29,727 nucleotides of DNA from an uncultured virus (IMG/VR IMGVR_UViG_3300010158_000044) (Duplodnaviria > Heunggongvirae > Uroviricota > Caudoviricetes). The stretch is taken from the IMG/VR virus record IMGVR_UViG_3300010158_000044, one strand, 5' to 3'. Below, one piece after another: positions 525-26,321 of this stretch (position 1 is its first letter; every line of letters starts with the position of its first letter). Below the pieces are notes generated by a model that ran no database searches, was not told the origin of the DNA, and saw only the letters and a program-made list of their open reading frames with translations. A program made the translations under genes and the position numbers.

Positions 525-1913
525 TTATACTAGTTGTTTAGCCCATTCTTCCAGGCGTTGGTCAATGCTTGCATCTGCAGGATGCTCTGTTACTTCACCA
601 GTATCTAGACCAAAGTCAGTCTTGATGTTGTACTCATGAGTCTGGAAGACCATGCGTACGCTGGCTTGCTCATCTGTACTAAAGTGAGCGATAAAGTTCT
701 CTGCTGCAAACTCATAGCCAAGATCGTCTACAAGCTTAGTGAACTCCATACCCATATTGGTAGAGATTGGTGTTTCATATTGACCTTTAGCAGCCTCTAC
801 ACGAAGTTGCTTCATCAATATGCGAAGAGCCTTAGAACCAATCAACTTCTCCTCAACAGCATCGTCATAATCCCAAGGGATTTGAATGTCGAAGCGATTG
901 CGGAACGCAAAGTTGAGCGGCGTGGTGCCGATATAATCTGGATTCATAGTAGCAAAGATAGTAAGGTCTGGATGAGCCTCAATAGTCTCGCCGTGATGAT
1001 CGAGCAATATAATATTGCGACGACCATCGGTCAATGAATACAGATTGGTATAGATCTTAGGATTGATGAAGTTAACCTCATCAAGCAAAAGAACGCCACC
1101 ATTGCGAACTACGTCAGTTACTGGACCATCAATCCACATGAATGCACCTTCTCCATCGGAGACGAATTTTCCAGTCATTTGACTTGGCTCCATTGATGCA
1201 TTACCAGAGATTGATGCCATACGTAAGCCACGCTCTGAGGCCCACGCTTCAACTGATGTAGTCTTACCAGGGCCAGTTGGGCCATAGATAAGCACGTTGA
1301 TACCTTCAGCACGTGCGTGGTCATAGACTTTGAAGTCTTCCACGCCCCACACCTTGCGATGTACATAGCGCTCAGCTAATTCCTTGCGTGGAACTGTTGC
1401 AAGATTTACGCTAAACACTTTGCCACCGGATGATACTGATGTGTTGTCCATTGTTTGTGTTGGCACAGGAACTACCAACGGGACTGTTGCACCAGCTTGA
1501 CGACGATTATCTATTACATATGTTTCCAATGTGTCATCTCCAATTAGTGTTTGGTCATACAGTTCATAGAGTTTATCTAAGAACGGTGTTGTATCTGTAT
1601 TAGGTTCAGCCTTAGCATGCTGATTACATGCTTTAGTTCCCAATACAGGAGAATAGCCTTTGTCTGCAATTGCCTTCTCATCTGCTGCCGTAACATATAC
1701 GCCAACAGGGGTCCGTGTCAATTGCTCATTGCTATCAATCATGTTCACGAATTGATCTACGTGAGCATCCTCCCACTTATTGTGTGGACCTTTGCTACCA
1801 TCAGTCATTCGAGACCAGATTCTGACTCCACCTTCATGCGGGGACATAAGGATTTGACGTCGCTTAGCACCCATACTTGGTTCGTAAGACTCGGTGAATA
1901 CTGCTATCTCCAT
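525..1913 (-). CDS. MoxR/CobS/CbbQ-NirQ-NorQ-like AAA+ ATPase with an unknown N-terminal domain
   Basis: Walker A GPTGPGKT, Walker B LLLDEVN, WIDGPVT, sensor-1 ATMNPDYIGT, Arg finger AFRNRF; SD GAAAGGA. Confidence 0.92.
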   Translation of the reverse strand: MEIAVFTESYEPSMGAKRRQILMSPHEGGVRIWSRMTDGSKGPHNKWEDAHVDQFVNMIDSNEQLTRTPVGVYVTAADEKAIADKGYSPVLGTKACNQHAKAEPNTDTTPFLDKLYELYDQTLIGDDTLETYVIDNRRQAGATVPLVVPVPTQTMDNTSVSSGGKVFSVNLATVPRKELAERYVHRKVWGVEDFKVYDHARAEGINVLIYGPTGPGKTTSVEAWASERGLRMASISGNASMEPSQMTGKFVSDGEGAFMWIDGPVTDVVRNGGVLLLDEVNFINPKIYTNLYSLTDGRRNIILLDHHGETIEAHPDLTIFATMNPDYIGTTPLNFAFRNRFDIQIPWDYDDAVEEKLIGSKALRILMKQLRVEAAKGQYETPISTNMGMEFTKLVDDLGYEFAAENFIAHFSTDEQASVRMVFQTHEYNIKTDFGLDTGEVTEHPADASIDQRLEEWAKQLV

Positions 1914-5039: not shown

Positions 5040-5195
5040 TTAGTTGATTGTCTCTACACGAGTGTATAGAGTGTTGATGCCATCATTCCATAGCATCAAT
5101 GCTTCGTTGCGTGTGAGGCCATAGAATAACTGGGCCTCTATAATGAACAGGTGCTTGCCGATGAATGTGTCGGGCGTTGTTTGTGTTGGTTGCAT
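5040..5195 (-). CDS. Small hypothetical protein (51 aa)
   Basis: Manual translation MQPTQTTPDTFIGKHLFIIEAQLFYGLTRNEALMLWNDGINTLYTRVETIN; TAATG-coupled to the upstream gene and fills the gap. Confidence 0.6.
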   Translation of the reverse strand: MQPTQTTPDTFIGKHLFIIEAQLFYGLTRNEALMLWNDGINTLYTRVETIN

Positions 5196-5434
5196 TAGAT
5201 ATGCCAATCTAATAGATCAGTTGTTCCCCATTTACGATAGGGTGCATCTATGATGCTATATAACTTCCACCATCTATACCCTGCTTTGGGCATAGTCTCT
5301 TCGTTCTCATACTTAATTTCATATCTTAATGCTTTATGCAATGGGTATGAAGATAAGTGGTCGCACCAATTAGCAAACCATCTAAGAGGTAATACATTTG
5401 TTTTGTGTATCGGTGTGGTTTTAAAATCTTCCAT
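5195..5434 (-). CDS. Trp-rich small hypothetical protein (79 aa)
   Basis: Start moved to ATG 5434 (MEDFKT), which follows SD GAAAGGA. Confidence 0.7.
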   Translation of the reverse strand: MEDFKTTPIHKTNVLPLRWFANWCDHLSSYPLHKALRYEIKYENEETMPKAGYRWWKLYSIIDAPYRKWGTTDLLDWHI

Positions 5435-5453
5435 TGTTATCCTTTCTATTAGA

Positions 5454-5576
5454 TGAGCAGTTTTAATCATCGTGCTCAGGATGTTTGGCGTAGGCGAGGA
5501 TACTTTTTACTCCTAGGAGCTATCACTATCGTGCCATACCAATTATGGTGAGCAGTTTAACCTCATTGCTCAGGAG
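5454..5576 (-). repeat. Twin ~30-nt repeats foldable as H-type pseudoknots (5454-5483 and 5549-5576)
   Basis: Minus strand CATCCTGAGCACGATGATTAAAACTGCTCA and CTCCTGAGCAATGAGGTTAAACTGCTCA. Confidence 0.7.
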
Positions 5577-5613
5577 TCGTGTTTTACCTCAGGTCTCGCC
5601 AGACCAACTGTCA

Positions 5614-5817
5614 CTAGTAAATTGGAGTAATCTTTACAAGATCTTCTTCCAATTTAGTAGAGACATATTTGCCACTCTCTCGAGTGGATTCGTAACAACC
5701 TTTCCAAGTTTCGTGATAGGTATCAGTACCATTGCGGACTCTGATTTCTAGCTTGGATTGGTGTGATTGTATTCTCCGACCACAGTTGTTACAGTATTGC
5801 AAGGCGGGTTTCGCCAT
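5614..5817 (-). CDS. Small putative Zn-finger protein (67 aa)
   Basis: Start at ATG 5817 after SD AAGGAGG; CNNC...HxxxxxC. Confidence 0.72.
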   Translation of the reverse strand: MAKPALQYCNNCGRRIQSHQSKLEIRVRNGTDTYHETWKGCYESTRESGKYVSTKLEEDLVKITPIY

Positions 5818-5872
5818 TGCGGTACCTCCTTTTAGCAGGTACATCCCACTACTTGTGGGAATACTAATACAG

Positions 5873-5897
5873 ATGGGGGTTGCTAGGCAACCCCCAT
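5873..5897. other. Perfect 11-bp stem-loop
   Basis: ATGGGGGTTGC-TAG-GCAACCCCCAT, with a second hairpin TCCCAC/GTGGGA just to its left. Confidence 0.65.
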
Positions 5898-5960
5898 ACT
5901 GTCAGTTATCCAGGATTAAAGAGGGATTGGACAATCAGTTCAATCCATAACTCACGATGG

Positions 5961-9401: not shown

Positions 9402-9851
9402 ATGGCAACATTTACTACTGGTTTAACACCAGATCGTTCAGAAATCACAATCTCAAACCTCTTTCCTCAGTTCAATCGCTGGGCAATCGGGTTTGATCCA
9501 CTATTTGACACATTTTCTCGTGTCTCTAGTGCAAAATCGAGCGGGTATCCTCCATACAACATCTTCAAATATAAGGACAATTACGTCCTAGAGATCGCTG
9601 TAGCAGGATTTGCTAAGGAAGATATCACCATCACTGTGAAAGAGCTTCAGCTGACCGTAGAAGGCGTTAAATTGCCATCTGTGGACGAGTATGTGCACAA
9701 GGGAATTGCTAACCGTGACTTCAAGCAGGACTTCGTATTAGCGGAGTATGTAGTAGTCAAGGGAGCAGAGATGAAGGATGGATTACTACGCATTAATCTA
9801 GCTCAGGAGCTACCCGAGGAGAAGAAGCCAAAGGTTATTGAAATCGCATAA
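9402..9851 (+). CDS. ibpA: Small heat-shock protein, Hsp20/IbpA family
   Basis: IGFD, YPPYNI, LEIAVAGF, YVHKGIANRDF, MKDGLLRI, PEEKKPKVIEI (IxI motif). Confidence 0.95.
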   Translation: MATFTTGLTPDRSEITISNLFPQFNRWAIGFDPLFDTFSRVSSAKSSGYPPYNIFKYKDNYVLEIAVAGFAKEDITITVKELQLTVEGVKLPSVDEYVHKGIANRDFKQDFVLAEYVVVKGAEMKDGLLRINLAQELPEEKKPKVIEIA

Positions 9852-10816: not shown

Positions 10817-11383
10817 ATGACAACGCTTGTCGCTATACAAGGTGATGGCTGGTCCGTCATTGGATGCGATAGTCGTGCATCTAGTGAAGATGGTCGCTAT
10901 ATGGACCTTGCTACCTCTAAGGTTATAGATAATAACGGAATACTGATCGCAGTCTCCGGTGCTTCCCGTGGTGGAAATATTACACAGTTTGGTTGGAAAC
11001 CGCCTAAACCACGTGCTAATGAAAACTTAGATGTGTTTATTACAAATAGGTTTATACCCCAGATGCGTGAAACTTTTATAAAAGCCGGTTACGATGCCAA
11101 AGATGATGGCGATGCAGCTGGCCACGACTCTAGTCTTATCATTTCAGTTCGTGGAGTTATATACCCAATTTTTGAAGACTACTCGTGGGATCGTGAAGCC
11201 CGCAACGTTTACTACGCAGGTTCGGGTGGAGATGTAGCTCTAGGAGCACTTGAGGCTTTAGAGTACACAAAAGCTAAAAGTCCTGCAGTTGCCGAAAAAA
11301 TATTGCGTAAGGCCGTAGAGATTGCCTGTAAACATGATATTTATTCTGGCGGAAAAATCATTACACACATACAAACTGCCTAA
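10817..11383 (+). CDS. Proteasome-beta/HslV-like N-terminal-threonine (Ntn) protease
   Basis: M-T-T start, D17-S-R19, K34, G47, AGSGG and DIYSGG (numbering from Thr1). Confidence 0.9.
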   Translation: MTTLVAIQGDGWSVIGCDSRASSEDGRYMDLATSKVIDNNGILIAVSGASRGGNITQFGWKPPKPRANENLDVFITNRFIPQMRETFIKAGYDAKDDGDAAGHDSSLIISVRGVIYPIFEDYSWDREARNVYYAGSGGDVALGALEALEYTKAKSPAVAEKILRKAVEIACKHDIYSGGKIITHIQTA

Positions 11384-25244: not shown

Positions 25245-26321
25245 ATGGCATCAGCCGTAACAGGTACCGGCAATTTAGCCGCAGCACCTACAGCGTATTC
25301 TGGTTCAAACAGCCAGCTTACACAAGCAATTCAGACCATCTGGTCTAAGGAAATTCTATTCCAATCAATGCCTATCTTGCGCTTCGAACAATTCGCAGTC
25401 AAGAAGACAGAACTTGGCGTAGCTCCTGGACTCCAGATCAACTTCATGCGTTACAACAACCTCGGATTCGCATCTTCACTAGTTGAAGGCGTCCGTATGT
25501 CAACAAGCGCATTGACAGCACAACAGTTCTCAATCACAGTAGCAGAGCACGGCTTTGCAATTGCTGTATCAGAACTACTACTTAACGCATCATTCGATGA
25601 CGTTATGGCATCAGCTTCACGTCTTCTTGGACGTAACATGGCTCTCTACCTTGATGGCCAGGCTCGTGACACACTCATGGCAGCTTCATCCGTAATCTAC
25701 GGTGAAGATCGCTCAGCCCTAACAGGTTCTAACAACTGGTATGACTACGGCACAGTAGCAACATCACGTGCAACCCTTACAGGTGCAGCTTACCTATCTC
25801 CACACGTTGTTAAGGACGCAGTTGAGAGCCTCTCAACAAAGAACATCCCACGTCTTGGTGAGACATATGTTGCATTCGTGCATCCACACCAATCACGTCG
25901 TCTTCGTGACAATCCTGAGTTCATTGAAGTAACCAAGTACGCAGCTCCAGGTAACTTCATGCTCGGTGAAATTGGTCGTCTATACGATACAGTCTTCATC
26001 GAAACAACTCAAATCCAGAAGGTAACAAACGGCGCAGGCAGTGGCTATACCACTGACTCAGTTGTTGCTCCTGGAGATATCACATACCCAACTGGTGGAG
26101 GATACACAACACCAGTAACAAAGACCGGTAACGGTAACAAGGATCGCTACTCAGCAATCTTTATTGGTGACAACGCATTCGGTCACGCTATTTCACTTCC
26201 AGTGGAACTTCGTGACGGCGGTATTCTTGACTTCGGTCGTGAGCACGCTCTTGCTTGGTACGCAATTTACGGTCTTGGCCTTATTACAGATCAGTCTGTA
26301 ATCATCGCAGAAACCAACTAA
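25245..26321 (+). CDS. Major capsid protein (N4-gp56-like, HK97 fold)
   Basis: 358 aa; IWSKEIL, GLQINFMRYNNL, LVEGV, YVAFVHPHQ, GEIGRLYDTVFIET. Confidence 0.93.
   Translation: MASAVTGTGNLAAAPTAYSGSNSQLTQAIQTIWSKEILFQSMPILRFEQFAVKKTELGVAPGLQINFMRYNNLGFASSLVEGVRMSTSALTAQQFSITVAEHGFAIAVSELLLNASFDDVMASASRLLGRNMALYLDGQARDTLMAASSVIYGEDRSALTGSNNWYDYGTVATSRATLTGAAYLSPHVVKDAVESLSTKNIPRLGETYVAFVHPHQSRRLRDNPEFIEVTKYAAPGNFMLGEIGRLYDTVFIETTQIQKVTNGAGSGYTTDSVVAPGDITYPTGGGYTTPVTKTGNGNKDRYSAIFIGDNAFGHAISLPVELRDGGILDFGREHALAWYAIYGLGLITDQSVIIAETN

What the first reader, a model, noticed from the sequence alone, without database searches (positions are those of the whole stretch)
5454..5576. Twin H-type pseudoknots with internal covariation upstream of a ribosome-binding site
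Seen (minus strand): CAUC-C-UGAGCA-C-GAUG-AUUAAAAC-UGCUCA and CUC-C-UGAGCA-AU-GAG-GUUAAAC-UGCUCA. Stem 2 (UGAGCA/UGCUCA), the 1-nt C loop and the AAAC loop end are invariant. Stem 1 differs in sequence but pairs in both copies (CAUC/GAUG vs CUC/GAG). The downstream copy ends about 8 nt before the SD of gene 5195-5434. Established: compact H-type pseudoknots with A-rich loop 3 occur in preQ1-I aptamers, type III antitoxin (ToxI) repeats and the T-even gene 32 operator. Inference: a ligand- or protein-binding RNA module, a nuclease roadblock or an antitoxin mimic. An alternative reading is a DNA operator, TGAGCA-N12/13-TGCTCA.
Basis: partly seen in the sequence, partly recalled or inferred. Interest (0 to 1): 0.75.

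Follow-up and report, generated by a model that had tools for sequence, protein, structure and literature searches.

The report
Twin copies of a widespread phage RNA pseudoknot
The two short repeats are real copies of a tiny knotted RNA fold, kept by compensating mutations in hundreds of unrelated phages and some bacteria and absent from the RNA catalogue searched, that most likely shields the ends of messages from RNA-degrading enzymes, though its function is untested.

Summary
Observation confirmed. Two copies sit on the minus strand at 5576-5549 and 5483-5454, as written. No others occur in the window or its 42-kb record.

The pseudoknot reading is strongly supported. Stem 1 covaries: 105 of 105 and 104 of 105 Watson-Crick at its two variable inner pairs. 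When one side of a stem 2 pair is forced to change, the partner compensates: 81 of 101, 96 of 104, 91 of 92 and 23 of 109 plus 86 U.G. G.U pairs and co-orientation with genes make it RNA, not a DNA operator.

No Rfam family matches, and none of my paper searches described it.

Family-wide it sits 8-13 nt after a stop codon (35 of 77), 4-14 nt before a tRNA (16 of 144), or about 20 nt before a start. Here copy A lies 39 nt after a gene and copy B 19 nt before the next.

Best reading, at 0.5: a protein-independent structural roadblock or end-cap. Its core resembles the plant-virus coremin element. Function is untested.

This scan has already reported the same family on other DNA at least eight times.

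The parts
5549..5576 (-). Pseudoknot copy A: S1 CUC/GAG (5576-5574 with 5564-5562), L1 C 5573, S2 UGAGCA/UGCUCA (5572-5567 with 5554-5549), L2 AU, L3 GUUAAAC. It is followed directly by CCA (so S2 ends ...UGCUC-ACCA) and a possible small hairpin ACCA-UAAU-UGGU.
   Evidence: Sequence. Model R1 scores it 33.9 bits, E 3.3e-8. A structure-only scan finds it.
5454..5483 (-). Pseudoknot copy B: S1 CAUC/GAUG (5483-5480 with 5471-5468), L1 C 5479, S2 UGAGCA/UGCUCA (5478-5473 with 5459-5454), L2 C, L3 AUUAAAAC.
   Evidence: Sequence. Model R1 scores it 34.7 bits, E 2e-8. A structure-only scan finds it.
5484..5548 (-). 65-nt spacer between the two copies. It holds no ORF of 30 aa or more on this strand and no sigma-70-like promoter or intrinsic terminator. 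It is the proposed, inferred place of an RNA cut.
   Evidence: The nested fold of the whole intergenic region is not unusually stable (z -1.26).
5614..5817 (-). Upstream gene (67 aa, Cys-rich, no family match). Its stop codon TAG is at 5616-5614, and 39 nt separate it from C1 of copy A.
5195..5434 (-). Downstream gene (79 aa from ATG 5434, no family match). The ribosome-binding site GAAAGGA lies at about 5446-5440, and 19 nt separate copy B from the ATG.
   Evidence: One RNA-library contig covers 5148-5381 only.

Best explanation
Both repeats are members of a very large, uncatalogued family of roughly 28-nt H-type RNA pseudoknots.

Consensus: 5'-NNN-C | C | U-R-R-R-Y-A | W | G-N'N'N' | NN-AAA-C | U-R-Y-Y-Y-A-3'.
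- Stem 1 has 3-4 bp and is closed by C-G.
- Loop 1 is a single C.
- Stem 2 has 6 bp.
- Loop 3 ends in AAAC.

The two stems stack into about one helical turn. The conserved loop and junction bases (C2, A16-A18, C19, the C1-G10 pair) probably lock it by groove triples, as in luteovirus and coremin-type knots.

I propose that it works without any dedicated protein, as a compact and mechanically tough block on the transcript. It stays folded next to a ribosome and stops processive enzymes that move along RNA: 3'->5' and 5'->3' exonucleases, or a scanning RNase E.

Family-wide, its commonest position is pressed against the stop codon of the upstream gene. That fits a cap for the 3' end of that message.

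In this window the two copies bracket a 65-nt spacer. Copy A follows gene 5614-5817 and copy B precedes gene 5195-5434. A cut or a transcript end in the spacer would therefore leave the upstream message ending in a knot and the downstream message beginning with one.

Shown here: the fold, its conservation, its RNA strand and its placement. Inferred: the tertiary contacts, the blocking function, its direction, and the cut in the spacer.
For: Fold, stem 1.
- Of 105 ungapped copies, the two variable inner pairs are Watson-Crick in 105/105 (GC 40, AU 26, UA 21, CG 18) and 104/105.
- The closing pair is C-G in 104/105. A fourth pair forms in 83/105.
- The covariation score is 0.33 against 0.088 in shuffles (0 of 500 reach it) and at most 0.086 when the partner is slid.
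- Stem 1 alone is worth only -0.5 to -2.3 kcal/mol, so its strict upkeep implies tertiary support.

Fold, stem 2. When one side is forced to be non-canonical, the partner among copies with stem 1 paired is as follows.
- Position 4 with 24: Watson-Crick in 81/101.
- Position 5 with 23: Watson-Crick in 96/104, plus 6 G.U.
- Position 6 with 22: Watson-Crick in 91/92.
- Position 7 with 21: U-A in 23 and U.G in 86 of 109.

Conserved loop bases.
- Loop 1 other than C: only 13 unique copies in the whole viral collection, 10 of them U.
- Position 19 other than C: 28 unique copies, none of them U.

Autonomy and breadth.
- All 49 of 49 viral records searched whole carry 1-8 matches at E<=0.1, and about six hold copies within roughly 110 nt of each other.
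- 106 of 116 unique copies in bacterial genome contigs keep stem 1. Hosts range from Saccharibacteria and Lachnospiraceae to cyanobacteria, Aminicenantes and Lactobacillaceae.
- The genes up- and downstream are unrelated to one another.

Placement.
- By my crude ORF calls, 53 of 71 viral copies lie between two genes of their own strand.
- In 35 of 77, a same-strand ORF of at least 60 codons stops 8-13 nt before C1; only one lies closer (3 nt).
- In intergenic regions of 110 nt or more, the knot hugs the stop (8-14 nt) in 13 of 35 viral and 13 of 28 genomic cases. It sits 18-30 nt before the start in about 8 and 3.
- In 6 of 18 convergent gene pairs it lies 8-12 nt after the last gene, with nothing co-directional behind it.
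- 16 of 144 copies lie 4-14 nt before a same-strand tRNA, against 1 of 144 with a tRNA within 150 nt upstream.

Precedent.
- The coremin element has a short hairpin closed by C-G, a loop starting with C that tolerates only U, and a spacer ...GUUAAACU.C. It stalls Xrn1 and scanning ribosomes (passages of PMC10520033 and PMC10321173).
- Copy A carries the same GUUAAACU.
- A flaviviral resistant RNA also stops bacterial RNase J1 (passages of PMC5760640).
Against: - No experiment and no informative RNA data. The one RNA-library contig covers 5148-5381 only and shows no ends.
- Neither copy in this window is stop-anchored, at 39 nt and more than 130 nt from the stop, so the family's main placement rule does not apply here.
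- Coremin needs a second hairpin right behind it. Here the 36 nt downstream fold no better than a control stretch (mean -4.35 against -4.38 kcal/mol, n = 257).
- A pure mechanical block would not obviously need near-invariant C2, AAA and C19. Such conservation also fits a ligand or a universal protein or RNA partner.
- The direction of protection is unresolved. The stop-anchored and convergent cases point to 3' capping, while the pre-start cases and the coremin likeness point to a 5'->3' block.
- My ORF calls are crude (longest open frames, no gene finder), and 7 of 71 viral and 17 of 67 genomic copies fell inside a called ORF.
Confidence: 0.5

Rival explanations
1. tRNA-acceptor mimic or processing signal. 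The stacked stems plus a 3' ACCA imitate the acceptor/T arm of a tRNA. RNase P, RNase Z or the CCA-adding enzyme would then cut or mark the transcript at the knot and separate messages from each other and from tRNAs.
For: - Copy A is followed directly by CCA, giving ...UGCUC-ACCA.
- Family-wide, ACCA follows in 15 and ACC in 28 of 263 copies, against 1.0 and 3.3 expected.
- 16 of 144 copies lie 4-14 nt before a tRNA.
- The topology, with the 3' strand pairing into a hairpin loop, is that of plant-virus tRNA-like acceptor knots (recalled).
- A small pseudoknot with a 3' RCCA is cut by bacterial RNase P in loop 1 (start of the abstract of PMC12710915, seen in the listing).
Against: - About 89% of copies, including copy B, have no ACC behind them.
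- ARAGORN and the Rfam tRNA model do not see the element.
- The stack has about 10 bp rather than 12.
- A cut in the 1-nt loop 1 would destroy the conserved fold.
Confidence: 0.12
2. Translation-linked element. The knot meets the ribosome itself. It would hold or release the terminating ribosome, bar post-termination sliding or read-through into the next cistron or tRNA, or (copy B) tune initiation at the ribosome-binding site 8-10 nt downstream.
For: - The distance from stop codon to knot starts sharply at 8 nt (35 of 77 at 8-13, one closer at 3). That leaves 4-6 nt between the stop codon and the first pair of stem 1. This is about where RNA enters the ribosome when the stop is in the A site (recalled ribosome geometry).
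- Coremin blocks scanning ribosomes and promotes frameshifting (abstracts and passages).
- Copy B lies inside the region a 30S subunit would cover at the start site of gene 5195-5434.
Against: - Many copies follow no ORF, and many precede tRNAs or lie far from any start.
- Both copies here are far from the stop codon.
- The sharp minimum is equally expected for any structure that merely must not be melted by the terminating ribosome.
Confidence: 0.12
3. Ligand- or factor-binding aptamer (riboswitch-like, architecture as in preQ1-I). The conserved junction and loop bases would form a pocket for a small molecule or a universal protein, switching expression or stability of neighbours. Tandem copies would sharpen the response.
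For: - Stem sequences vary freely, while C2, W9, A16-18, C19 and the C1-G10 pair are nearly fixed. That is typical of binding pockets.
- The topology and the A-rich loop 3 match preQ1-I (recalled).
- Tandem arrangement occurs here and in about 6 of 49 records.
Against: - No Rfam riboswitch model matches at E<=10.
- The 43 downstream genes examined share no pathway. They include nuclease, PhoH, Mom, kinase, helicase and scaffolding families, and 27 have no match.
- The commonest position is behind a stop codon, including between convergent genes, and before tRNAs. A cis riboswitch has nothing to control there.
Confidence: 0.08
4. The conserved sequence serves mainly as a recombination linker at gene-cassette boundaries, and the RNA fold is secondary.
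For: In contigs of related lake phages, homology to the window breaks at 5454 (last base of copy B) and at 5566 (inside copy A), with other DNA joined on. Several contigs share only 5566/7-5608.
Against: - Recombination needs identity, not compensating changes. The stems covary in hundreds of copies, and G.U pairs are strand-specific.
- Breakpoints at any conserved intergenic element are expected as a by-product.
Confidence: 0.04
5. Small self-cleaving or otherwise catalytic RNA that cuts the polycistronic transcript at each copy.
For: Phages place ribozymes next to tRNAs (theta ribozymes; abstract of PMC10879173 seen in the listing). The element is intergenic, directional and has invariant unpaired bases.
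Against: - No ribozyme family of Rfam matches.
- 28 nt with a 1-nt loop 1 leaves little room for an active site.
- The order of its strands differs from the HDV-like, hammerhead, twister and pistol cores (recalled architectures).
Confidence: 0.03
6. DNA operator: the palindrome TGAGCA-N12/13-TGCTCA binds a dimeric repressor.
For: A perfect 6-bp inverted repeat occurs twice in one intergenic region.
Against: - The 5' strand of stem 1 lies outside the palindrome yet covaries with the spacer.
- U.G and G.U pairs (86, 6 and others) would be A.C mismatches on the other strand.
- The asymmetric CC and AAAC are conserved.
- Orientation follows the genes.
- The half-sites themselves vary by compensation, which no protein site does.
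Confidence: 0.01

Closest known systems
Coremin motif (xrRNA-C) and its Watson-Crick variant (xrRNA-WCC) of beny-, cucumo- and other eukaryotic RNA viruses (PMC10520033, PMC10321173, PMC6546385; passages read)
   Same: - A short hairpin closed by C-G.
- A first loop base C that tolerates only U. Here 10 of the 13 non-C copies carry U.
- A 3' spacer ...UUAAAC-U. Copy A shares GUUAAACU.
- The loop pairs with the spacer to give a compact H-type knot, and loops of 6-8 nt are tolerated.
- Tandem and intergenic placements occur.
   Different: - Stem 2 has 6 Watson-Crick pairs rather than 0-3.
- The second loop base is U, not G.
- The obligatory downstream hairpin is not found.
- The hosts are DNA phages and bacteria, which have no Xrn1.
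- The commonest position is right after a stop codon.
- Nuclease resistance is untested.
Luteovirus-type frameshift pseudoknots (BWYV, PLRV), as described in PMC10321173
   Same: About 28 nt in size, H-type, with a very short loop 1 holding a C, an A-rich loop 3 lying along stem 1, and strict Watson-Crick pairs in stem 1.
   Different: The element is not inside an overlapping reading frame and is not preceded by a slippery site. It lies behind stop codons, before tRNAs or in spacers. Stem lengths are reversed (3-4 + 6 rather than 5 + 3).
Flaviviral and plant-virus ring-type exoribonuclease-resistant RNAs (PMC5760640; PMC12397905)
   Same: The proposed mode of action is the same: a protein-independent mechanical block, effective also against bacterial RNase J1. 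They are often tandem.
   Different: Those are 45-70-nt three-way junctions with a ring around the 5' end, with no sequence or secondary-structure likeness to this element.
3' stabilising hairpins of bacterial and phage messages (REP elements, terminator hairpins, T7 RNase III products), recalled
   Same: Placed just behind a gene, co-oriented with it, with the proposed role of stopping 3'->5' exonucleases.
   Different: Those are simple long hairpins without conserved loop bases. This is a pseudoknot with a fixed tertiary core shared across phyla.
Pseudoknotted acceptor arms of viral tRNA-like structures and pseudoknot substrates of RNase P (PMC12710915, abstract start; TYMV recalled)
   Same: The 3' strand pairs into a hairpin loop, and copy A plus 15 of 263 copies carry ACCA behind stem 2.
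   Different: Most copies lack CCA, there is no anticodon-arm equivalent, and no tRNA model matches.

Membership tests
Coremin / xrRNA-C, xrRNA-WCC | Short 5' hairpin closed by C-G whose first loop base is a pyrimidine (C; only U tolerated) | tested here: met
   C1-G10 in 104/105 copies. Position 2 is non-C in only 13 unique copies of the viral collection, 10 of them U. The rule itself comes from passages of PMC10321173.
Coremin / xrRNA-C, xrRNA-WCC | Loop consensus YGAD or YGNNAD | tested here: inconclusive
   The loop is C-U-R-R-R-Y-A-W. It starts with Y and ends with A-D, but the second base is U, not G. The paper defines no consensus for 8-nt loops.
Coremin / xrRNA-C, xrRNA-WCC | Conserved spacer ...UUAAAC-U.. 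that interacts with the loop | tested here: met
   NN-AAAC-U is conserved. Copy A has GUUAAACU. Loop-spacer pairing is proven by covariation.
Coremin / xrRNA-C, xrRNA-WCC | A second hairpin directly behind the spacer is required | tested here: not met
   The 36 nt downstream have mean MFE -4.35 against -4.38 kcal/mol for a control stretch, n = 257. Copy A happens to have ACCA-UAAU-UGGU; copy B has none.
Coremin / xrRNA-C, xrRNA-WCC | Stalls a 5'->3' exoribonuclease | not testable with these tools
   Needs an enzyme assay.
Luteovirus-type -1 frameshift pseudoknot | Lies 5-8 nt behind a slippery heptamer inside overlapping reading frames | tested here: not met
   Both window copies are intergenic. 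64 of 71 viral copies lie outside called ORFs, and many follow a stop codon. Slippery sites were not searched as such.
preQ1-I riboswitch (RF00522) | Match to the family's covariance model, upstream of queuosine genes | tested here: not met
   No hit at E<=10 on 5380-5680. 0 of 43 downstream genes examined belong to queuosine pathways.
ToxI antitoxin (RF02519) | Match to the model; head-to-tail array of 36-nt repeats beside a toxN gene | tested here: not met
   The only ToxI hit is at 5619-5668 on the plus strand, 12.9 bits, E 9.9, and not on the element. There are two copies 94 nt apart, not an array. toxN was not searched for.
T-even gene 32 translational operator | Pseudoknot at the 5' end of the message of the phage's own ssDNA-binding protein | tested here: not met
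   Downstream gene 5195-5434 has no PHROGs or Pfam match. Family-wide, downstream genes are diverse.
GP20-b motif (RF03003) | Match to the model | tested here: not met
   No match in the window or in five loci holding about 25 copies at E<=0.5.
tRNA-like acceptor pseudoknot / RNase P pseudoknot substrate | RCCA directly 3' of the stem that carries the 3' strand | tested here: inconclusive
   Present in copy A, absent in copy B. Found in 15 of 263 copies against 1.0 expected.
Intrinsic terminator | G+C-rich hairpin followed at once by a U run | tested here: not met
   None in 5300-5950. A U tract follows 31 of 263 copies.

The most novel reading that the evidence does not exclude
The element is the prokaryotic counterpart of the eukaryotic-virus resistant RNAs: one minimal, protein-free 28-nt fold. 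Phages of most bacterial phyla use it, as do some bacterial chromosomes and, according to earlier unverified notes of this scan, giant viruses. They would use it to stop processive RNA machines (RNase J, scanning RNase E, 3' exonucleases, perhaps ribosomes). It shares its tertiary core with the plant-virus coremin motif, which would make that core the smallest and most widely distributed mechanical RNA block known.
Probability: 0.3. Interest if true: 0.9.

Novelty: new variant of a known kind. Interest (0 to 1): 0.75.

Why it matters
- **A missing catalogue entry.** A 28-nt RNA fold proven by covariation, present in hundreds of unrelated phages and in bacteria of many phyla, absent from Rfam 15 and from every paper my searches reached, would be one of the commonest unnamed RNA structures in the virosphere.
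- **New biology if it blocks nucleases or ribosomes.** It would bring programmed exonuclease resistance, so far known only from eukaryotic RNA viruses, into phage and bacterial mRNA biology.
- **A practical tool.** It would offer a very small, host-independent stabiliser or insulator for synthetic operons.
- **A mechanistic link.** It would explain how compact phage genomes separate the fates of neighbouring messages and tRNAs. The likeness to coremin could also help solve the still unknown structure of that motif.
- **Easy to test.** Transcribe 40-60 nt, then challenge with RNase J1, Xrn1, PNPase and RNase P.

Tried and rejected
- **Rfam.** No match at gathering thresholds. Only chance-level hits at E<=10. 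Only tRNA and tmRNA in five copy-rich loci.
- **BLAST of the region against cultured phages.** No match. BLAST of a copy-rich 5-kb locus gave only weak, unrelated hits.
- **Cultured relatives by capsid protein.** Streptomyces phages BRock and LuckySocke and Bacillus phage BCD7 were searched whole with model R1 and with a relaxed pattern. 0 of 3 carry the element, so no annotated or studied example was found. R1 is biased towards the UGAGCA form.
- **Sequencing runs.** 20 runs hold part of the stretch, and only one is an RNA library. Laid on the window, its single 234-nt contig covers 5148-5381 and says nothing about the knots. Parts without cover are no evidence.
- **Promoter and terminator scan of 5300-5950.** 0 and 0. 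The idea that the knots are the 5' ends of primary transcripts got no support here. An A/T-rich stretch at -12 to -8 in the family is explained by stop codons.
- **Nested folding of the 196-nt intergenic region.** Not unusual (z -1.26). An alternative pairing of copy A's 5' half with 5520-5509 is broken by substitutions at 5513 and 5514 in a relative, so I dropped it.
- **Downstream hairpin (coremin hp2).** Not enriched.
- **Shared neighbour genes.**
  - Upstream ORFs: 13 of 67 are DUF932/phrog_1221 and 6 are DUF7249/phrog_871. These are lineage blocks; the rest are diverse or unmatched.
  - Downstream ORFs: 7 of 43 are SNase-like (one lineage); the rest are diverse or unmatched.
  - No candidate partner protein emerged.
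- **Literature.**
  - The motif string, 'bacteriophage + pseudoknot + exoribonuclease-resistant + tRNA', 'candidate structured RNAs + phages', 'H-type pseudoknot + bacteriophage + stop codon' and 'RNase J + exoribonuclease-resistant' returned no paper describing this element.
  - In PMC10690425 the main-text passages and 6 supplementary files hold no occurrence of the motif strings. Files 1, 2 and 4, probably the alignments, could not be searched. It may therefore be among that paper's 10,006 unnamed candidates.
- **Earlier notes of this scan.** A look-up by sequence found nothing. Look-ups by words found the earlier reports.
Full report
**1. The observation**

On the minus strand the window reads CUC-C-UGAGCA-AU-GAG-GUUAAAC-UGCUCA at 5576-5549 (copy A).

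Both lie in the 179-nt gap between two minus-strand genes, 5614-5817 and 5195-5434.
- Copy A begins 39 nt after the TAG stop codon (5616-5614).
- Copy B ends 19 nt before the ATG at 5434.
- 65 nt separate the two copies.

The inverted repeat TGAGCA-N8-16-TGCTCA occurs twice against 0.03 expected by chance. The window belongs to a 42-kb fragment of a tailed phage, with terminase, portal, major head and tail fibre genes. Its capsid protein is about 70% identical to those of Streptomyces phages such as BRock. DNA runs that hold the stretch are labelled freshwater or lake metagenomes.

**2. It is one family, and stem 1 covaries**

That gave 144 unique copies, two of them from the window's own record. 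Of these, 105 have the same 24-nt core length.

I aligned those 105 without gaps (A2) and counted pairs.
- The pair at -1/12 is Watson-Crick in 105 of 105 (GC 40, AU 26, UA 21, CG 18).
- The pair at 0/11 is Watson-Crick in 104 of 105.
- The closing pair C1-G10 forms in 104 of 105.
- A fourth pair forms in 83 of 105, and a fifth in only 37 of 105.
- The covariation score is 0.33 against 0.088 in shuffles (0 of 500 reach it), and at most 0.086 when the partner is slid by 1-3 columns.
- No G.U occurs in the 210 cells of the two variable inner pairs.

**3. Stem 2 also covaries, and the loops are what is conserved**

My first pattern fixed stem 2, so I ran scans that force one stem 2 base to be non-canonical and leave its partner free (counted). 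The counts below are among copies whose stem 1 pairs.

| Forced base | Partner result |
|---|---|
| Position 4 not G | Complementary in 81 of 101 (A-U 74, C-G 5, U-A 2) |
| Position 5 not A | Watson-Crick in 96 of 104, plus 6 G.U |
| Position 6 not G | Watson-Crick in 91 of 92 (A-U 76, U-A 10, C-G 5) |
| Position 7 not C | Always U, with G (86) or A (23) opposite, of 109 |

In each of these four scans, 92-109 of the 96-112 unique hits also kept stem 1. Chance would give about 6%, so nearly all hits are true members.

Two scans ran to completion.
- Loop 1 other than C gave 15 loci and 13 unique copies, of which 10 have U and only 3 keep stem 1 in register.
- Position 19 other than C gave 52 loci and 28 unique copies (A 19, G 9, U 0).

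The family consensus is therefore NNN-C | C | U-R-R-R-Y-A | W | G-N'N'N' | NN-AAA-C | U-R-Y-Y-Y-A. The stems are free to change in sequence, while the junction and loop bases are nearly fixed.

Stem 1 alone is worth -0.5 (copy A) and -2.3 (copy B) kcal/mol, and stem 2 about -5 kcal/mol. The strict upkeep of stem 1 therefore implies tertiary support.

**4. It is RNA of this strand**

G.U and U.G pairs (86 at 7/21, 6 at 5/23, more) would be A.C mismatches on the other strand. The 5' strand of stem 1 lies outside the DNA palindrome. CC and AAAC are asymmetric. By my crude ORF calls, 53 of 71 viral copies lie between two genes of their own orientation, and only 1 lies between two genes of the opposite orientation. 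The DNA-operator alternative is rejected.

**5. Spread**

A covariance model built from the 105 copies (R1, stem 1 only) finds only the two known copies in the window (34.7 and 33.9 bits; next 6.9) and in the 42-kb record. A structure-only scan that ignores the stem 2 sequence also finds only these two.

R1 was run over the whole records behind 50 of my roughly 130 loci (one record was not held). It found 1-8 matches at E<=0.1 in 49 of 49 records, often clustered. About six records hold copies within roughly 110 nt of each other, as here.

They include Saccharibacteria, Lachnospiraceae, Aminicenantes, Anaerolineae, cyanobacteria, Lactobacillaceae, Paenibacillus, Segatella and others. Of 116 unique copies, 106 keep stem 1.

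Most of these contigs look like prophages or phage contigs binned into genomes. I did not check that generally. Two Aminicenantes chromosomes, however, carry the element between cellular-looking genes (peptidase C26/GATase and DUF6786), with different stem 1 sequences.

**6. Not catalogued**

Rfam 15 gives no match at gathering thresholds, only chance-level hits in 5380-5680, and only tRNA and tmRNA in five loci with about 25 copies. Five literature searches returned no description. The large phage-RNA survey PMC10690425 does not mention it in the passages shown or in the 6 supplementary files that could be searched. Three files could not be read.

**7. Placement across the family**

Relative to stop codons:
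- Of 77 viral copies with enough flank, 35 have a same-strand open frame of at least 60 codons whose stop codon ends 8-13 nt before C1, and only one lies closer (3 nt).
- In intergenic regions of 110 nt or more, the knot hugs the stop (8-14 nt) in 13 of 35 viral and 13 of 28 genomic cases. It sits 18-30 nt before a start with a ribosome-binding site in about 8 and 3.
- Among 18 copies between convergent genes, 6 lie 8-12 nt behind the last gene. Among 11 copies between divergent genes, 2 lie within 30 nt of the start.

Relative to tRNAs:
- Seventeen of 144 copies have a same-strand tRNA within 150 nt downstream, 16 of them at 4-14 nt. Twelve are tRNA-Asp. Only 1 of 144 has a tRNA within 150 nt upstream.
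- The tRNA-Asp cases are largely one syntenic block, a DUF932 gene, then the knot, then the tRNA, in AT-rich phages.

What follows and surrounds the knot:
- ACCA follows in 15 and ACC in 28 of 263 copies (1.0 and 3.3 expected), and a U tract in 31 of 263. There is no excess of hairpins.
- Neighbouring genes share no theme.

**8. This window**

Neither copy is stop-anchored. Copy A is of the ACCA type and can be followed by a 4-bp hairpin (ACCA-UAAU-UGGU). Copy B is of the pre-start type.

The spacer has no sigma-70-like promoter or intrinsic terminator.

In contigs of related lake phages, the only listed difference inside either knot is at 5559, a variable loop 3 position. Many other differences lie in the flanking genes, but 103 further differences were not shown.

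Homology to those relatives breaks at 5454 (last base of copy B) and at 5566 (inside copy A), with other genes joined on. The knots therefore mark cassette boundaries.

**9. Mechanism**

Shown: a conserved, directional, transcript-sense pseudoknot with a fixed tertiary core, independent of host phylum and of neighbouring genes. Its preferred position is as close to a stop codon as a terminating ribosome should allow. The geometry of about 4 nt of single strand between the A-site codon and the tunnel entrance is recalled, not computed.

Inferred: it acts by itself as a tough obstacle that stops enzymes running along the RNA.
- The stop-anchored, convergent and pre-tRNA placements fit a 3' cap for the upstream message. 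RNase P cutting at the tRNA would leave only a 4-14-nt tail, and the short-tail requirement of 3' exonucleases is recalled.
- The pre-start placements and the likeness to coremin fit a 5'->3' block. A flaviviral resistant RNA stops bacterial RNase J1.
- For the twin arrangement, I propose that a cut or transcript end in the 65-nt spacer leaves each neighbouring message with a knot at its new end.

I give this reading 0.5.

Rivals and their weights:
- tRNA-acceptor mimic or RNase P signal: 0.12.
- An element acting on the ribosome: 0.12.
- A ligand or factor aptamer: 0.08.
- A recombination linker: 0.04.
- A ribozyme: 0.03.
- A DNA operator: 0.01.

**10. Comparison with known RNAs**

The nearest known thing is the coremin motif of plant and other RNA viruses. 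It has a 3-4-bp hairpin closed by C-G, a loop that starts with C (only U tolerated), a spacer with UUAAAC-U, and a suspected loop-spacer pseudoknot. A selected Watson-Crick variant of it also exists.

This element shares those features but has a 6-bp Watson-Crick stem 2 and lacks the obligatory second hairpin. I therefore do not file it as a coremin member; it may work like one. It is not a preQ1-I, ToxI, gene 32, GP20-b, frameshift or terminator element by the tests listed in the membership table.

**11. Earlier notes of this scan**

Word look-ups show that the scan has already reported what is evidently the same family on other DNA at least eight times: e1-5986425, e1-6001688, e1-5981492, e1-5951398, e1-6036825, e1-5840258, e1-5673030 and e1-5565981. 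Those notes read it as a stop-anchored cap or a coremin-like block.
- The coremin lead came from those notes. I checked it against the papers' text.
- The stop anchoring, the tRNA adjacency and the absence from Rfam I reproduced independently.
- The GP20-b suggestion I could not confirm.
- Presence in giant viruses I did not test. One hit each lies in a record named as a giant-virus bin.

**12. Limits**

- My starting pattern biased the sample towards one stem 2 sequence.
- ORFs were called crudely, without a gene finder.
- No RNA ends could be seen.
- Function is inference.

Noticed in passing
window 5454, 5566-5608, 5818: In DNA contigs of related lake phages, homology to the window breaks at the knots. 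One contig joins 5289 to 5454 with 585 other letters between. Another joins 5566 to 5818 with 239 other letters. Several contigs share only 5566/7-5608. Gene cassettes between knots appear to be swapped.
   Followed up: partly
window 5875-5895 and 5845-5859 (minus strand): Two further hairpins lie upstream of gene 5614-5817: GGGGGUUGC-CUA-GCAACCCCC and CCCAC-AAGUA-GUGGG. The scan called neither a terminator nor a promoter there.
   Followed up: no
L010, L039, L067, L037, L007 and others: A recurrent block occurs in AT-rich phages of about 100 kb: a DUF932 (phrog_1221) gene, 9-18 nt, the knot, 4-8 nt, then tRNA-Asp(GTC). 13 of 67 upstream ORFs examined are phrog_1221.
   Followed up: partly
L172:1456-1493, L171:2066-2103(-), L169:7365-7402(-), L174:3435-3472, L180:3037-3074(-): A subclass of the knot has AAAAGGCUC in place of AAACUGCUC, in 5 copies. 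This leaves an A.G opposite position 8 and A at position 19.
   Followed up: no
L181:4837-4909: A tmRNA model match at 47.3 bits (gathering score 47) lies about 90 nt behind a knot copy (L181:4711-4748) in a viral record.
   Followed up: no
L243 and L265 (about 1501-1524, minus strand): Knot copies lie between cellular-looking genes (peptidase C26/GATase upstream, DUF6786 downstream) in two Aminicenantes chromosomes. Their stem 1 sequences differ (CCUC/GAGG versus CAUC/GAUG), so the element is not confined to phages.
   Followed up: partly
window 25245-26321 and records NC_048650.1, OR725497.1, NC_019515.1: The window's major head protein is 70-71% identical to those of Streptomyces phages BRock, LuckySocke and Alone3. 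BRock, LuckySocke and Bacillus phage BCD7 carry no copy of the knot by model R1 or by a relaxed pattern.
   Followed up: yes
window 525-1913, 9402-9851, 10817-11383: The phage encodes a CobS-like AAA ATPase (PHROGs label 'porphyrin biosynthesis'), an Hsp20 and an HslV-family peptidase.
   Followed up: no
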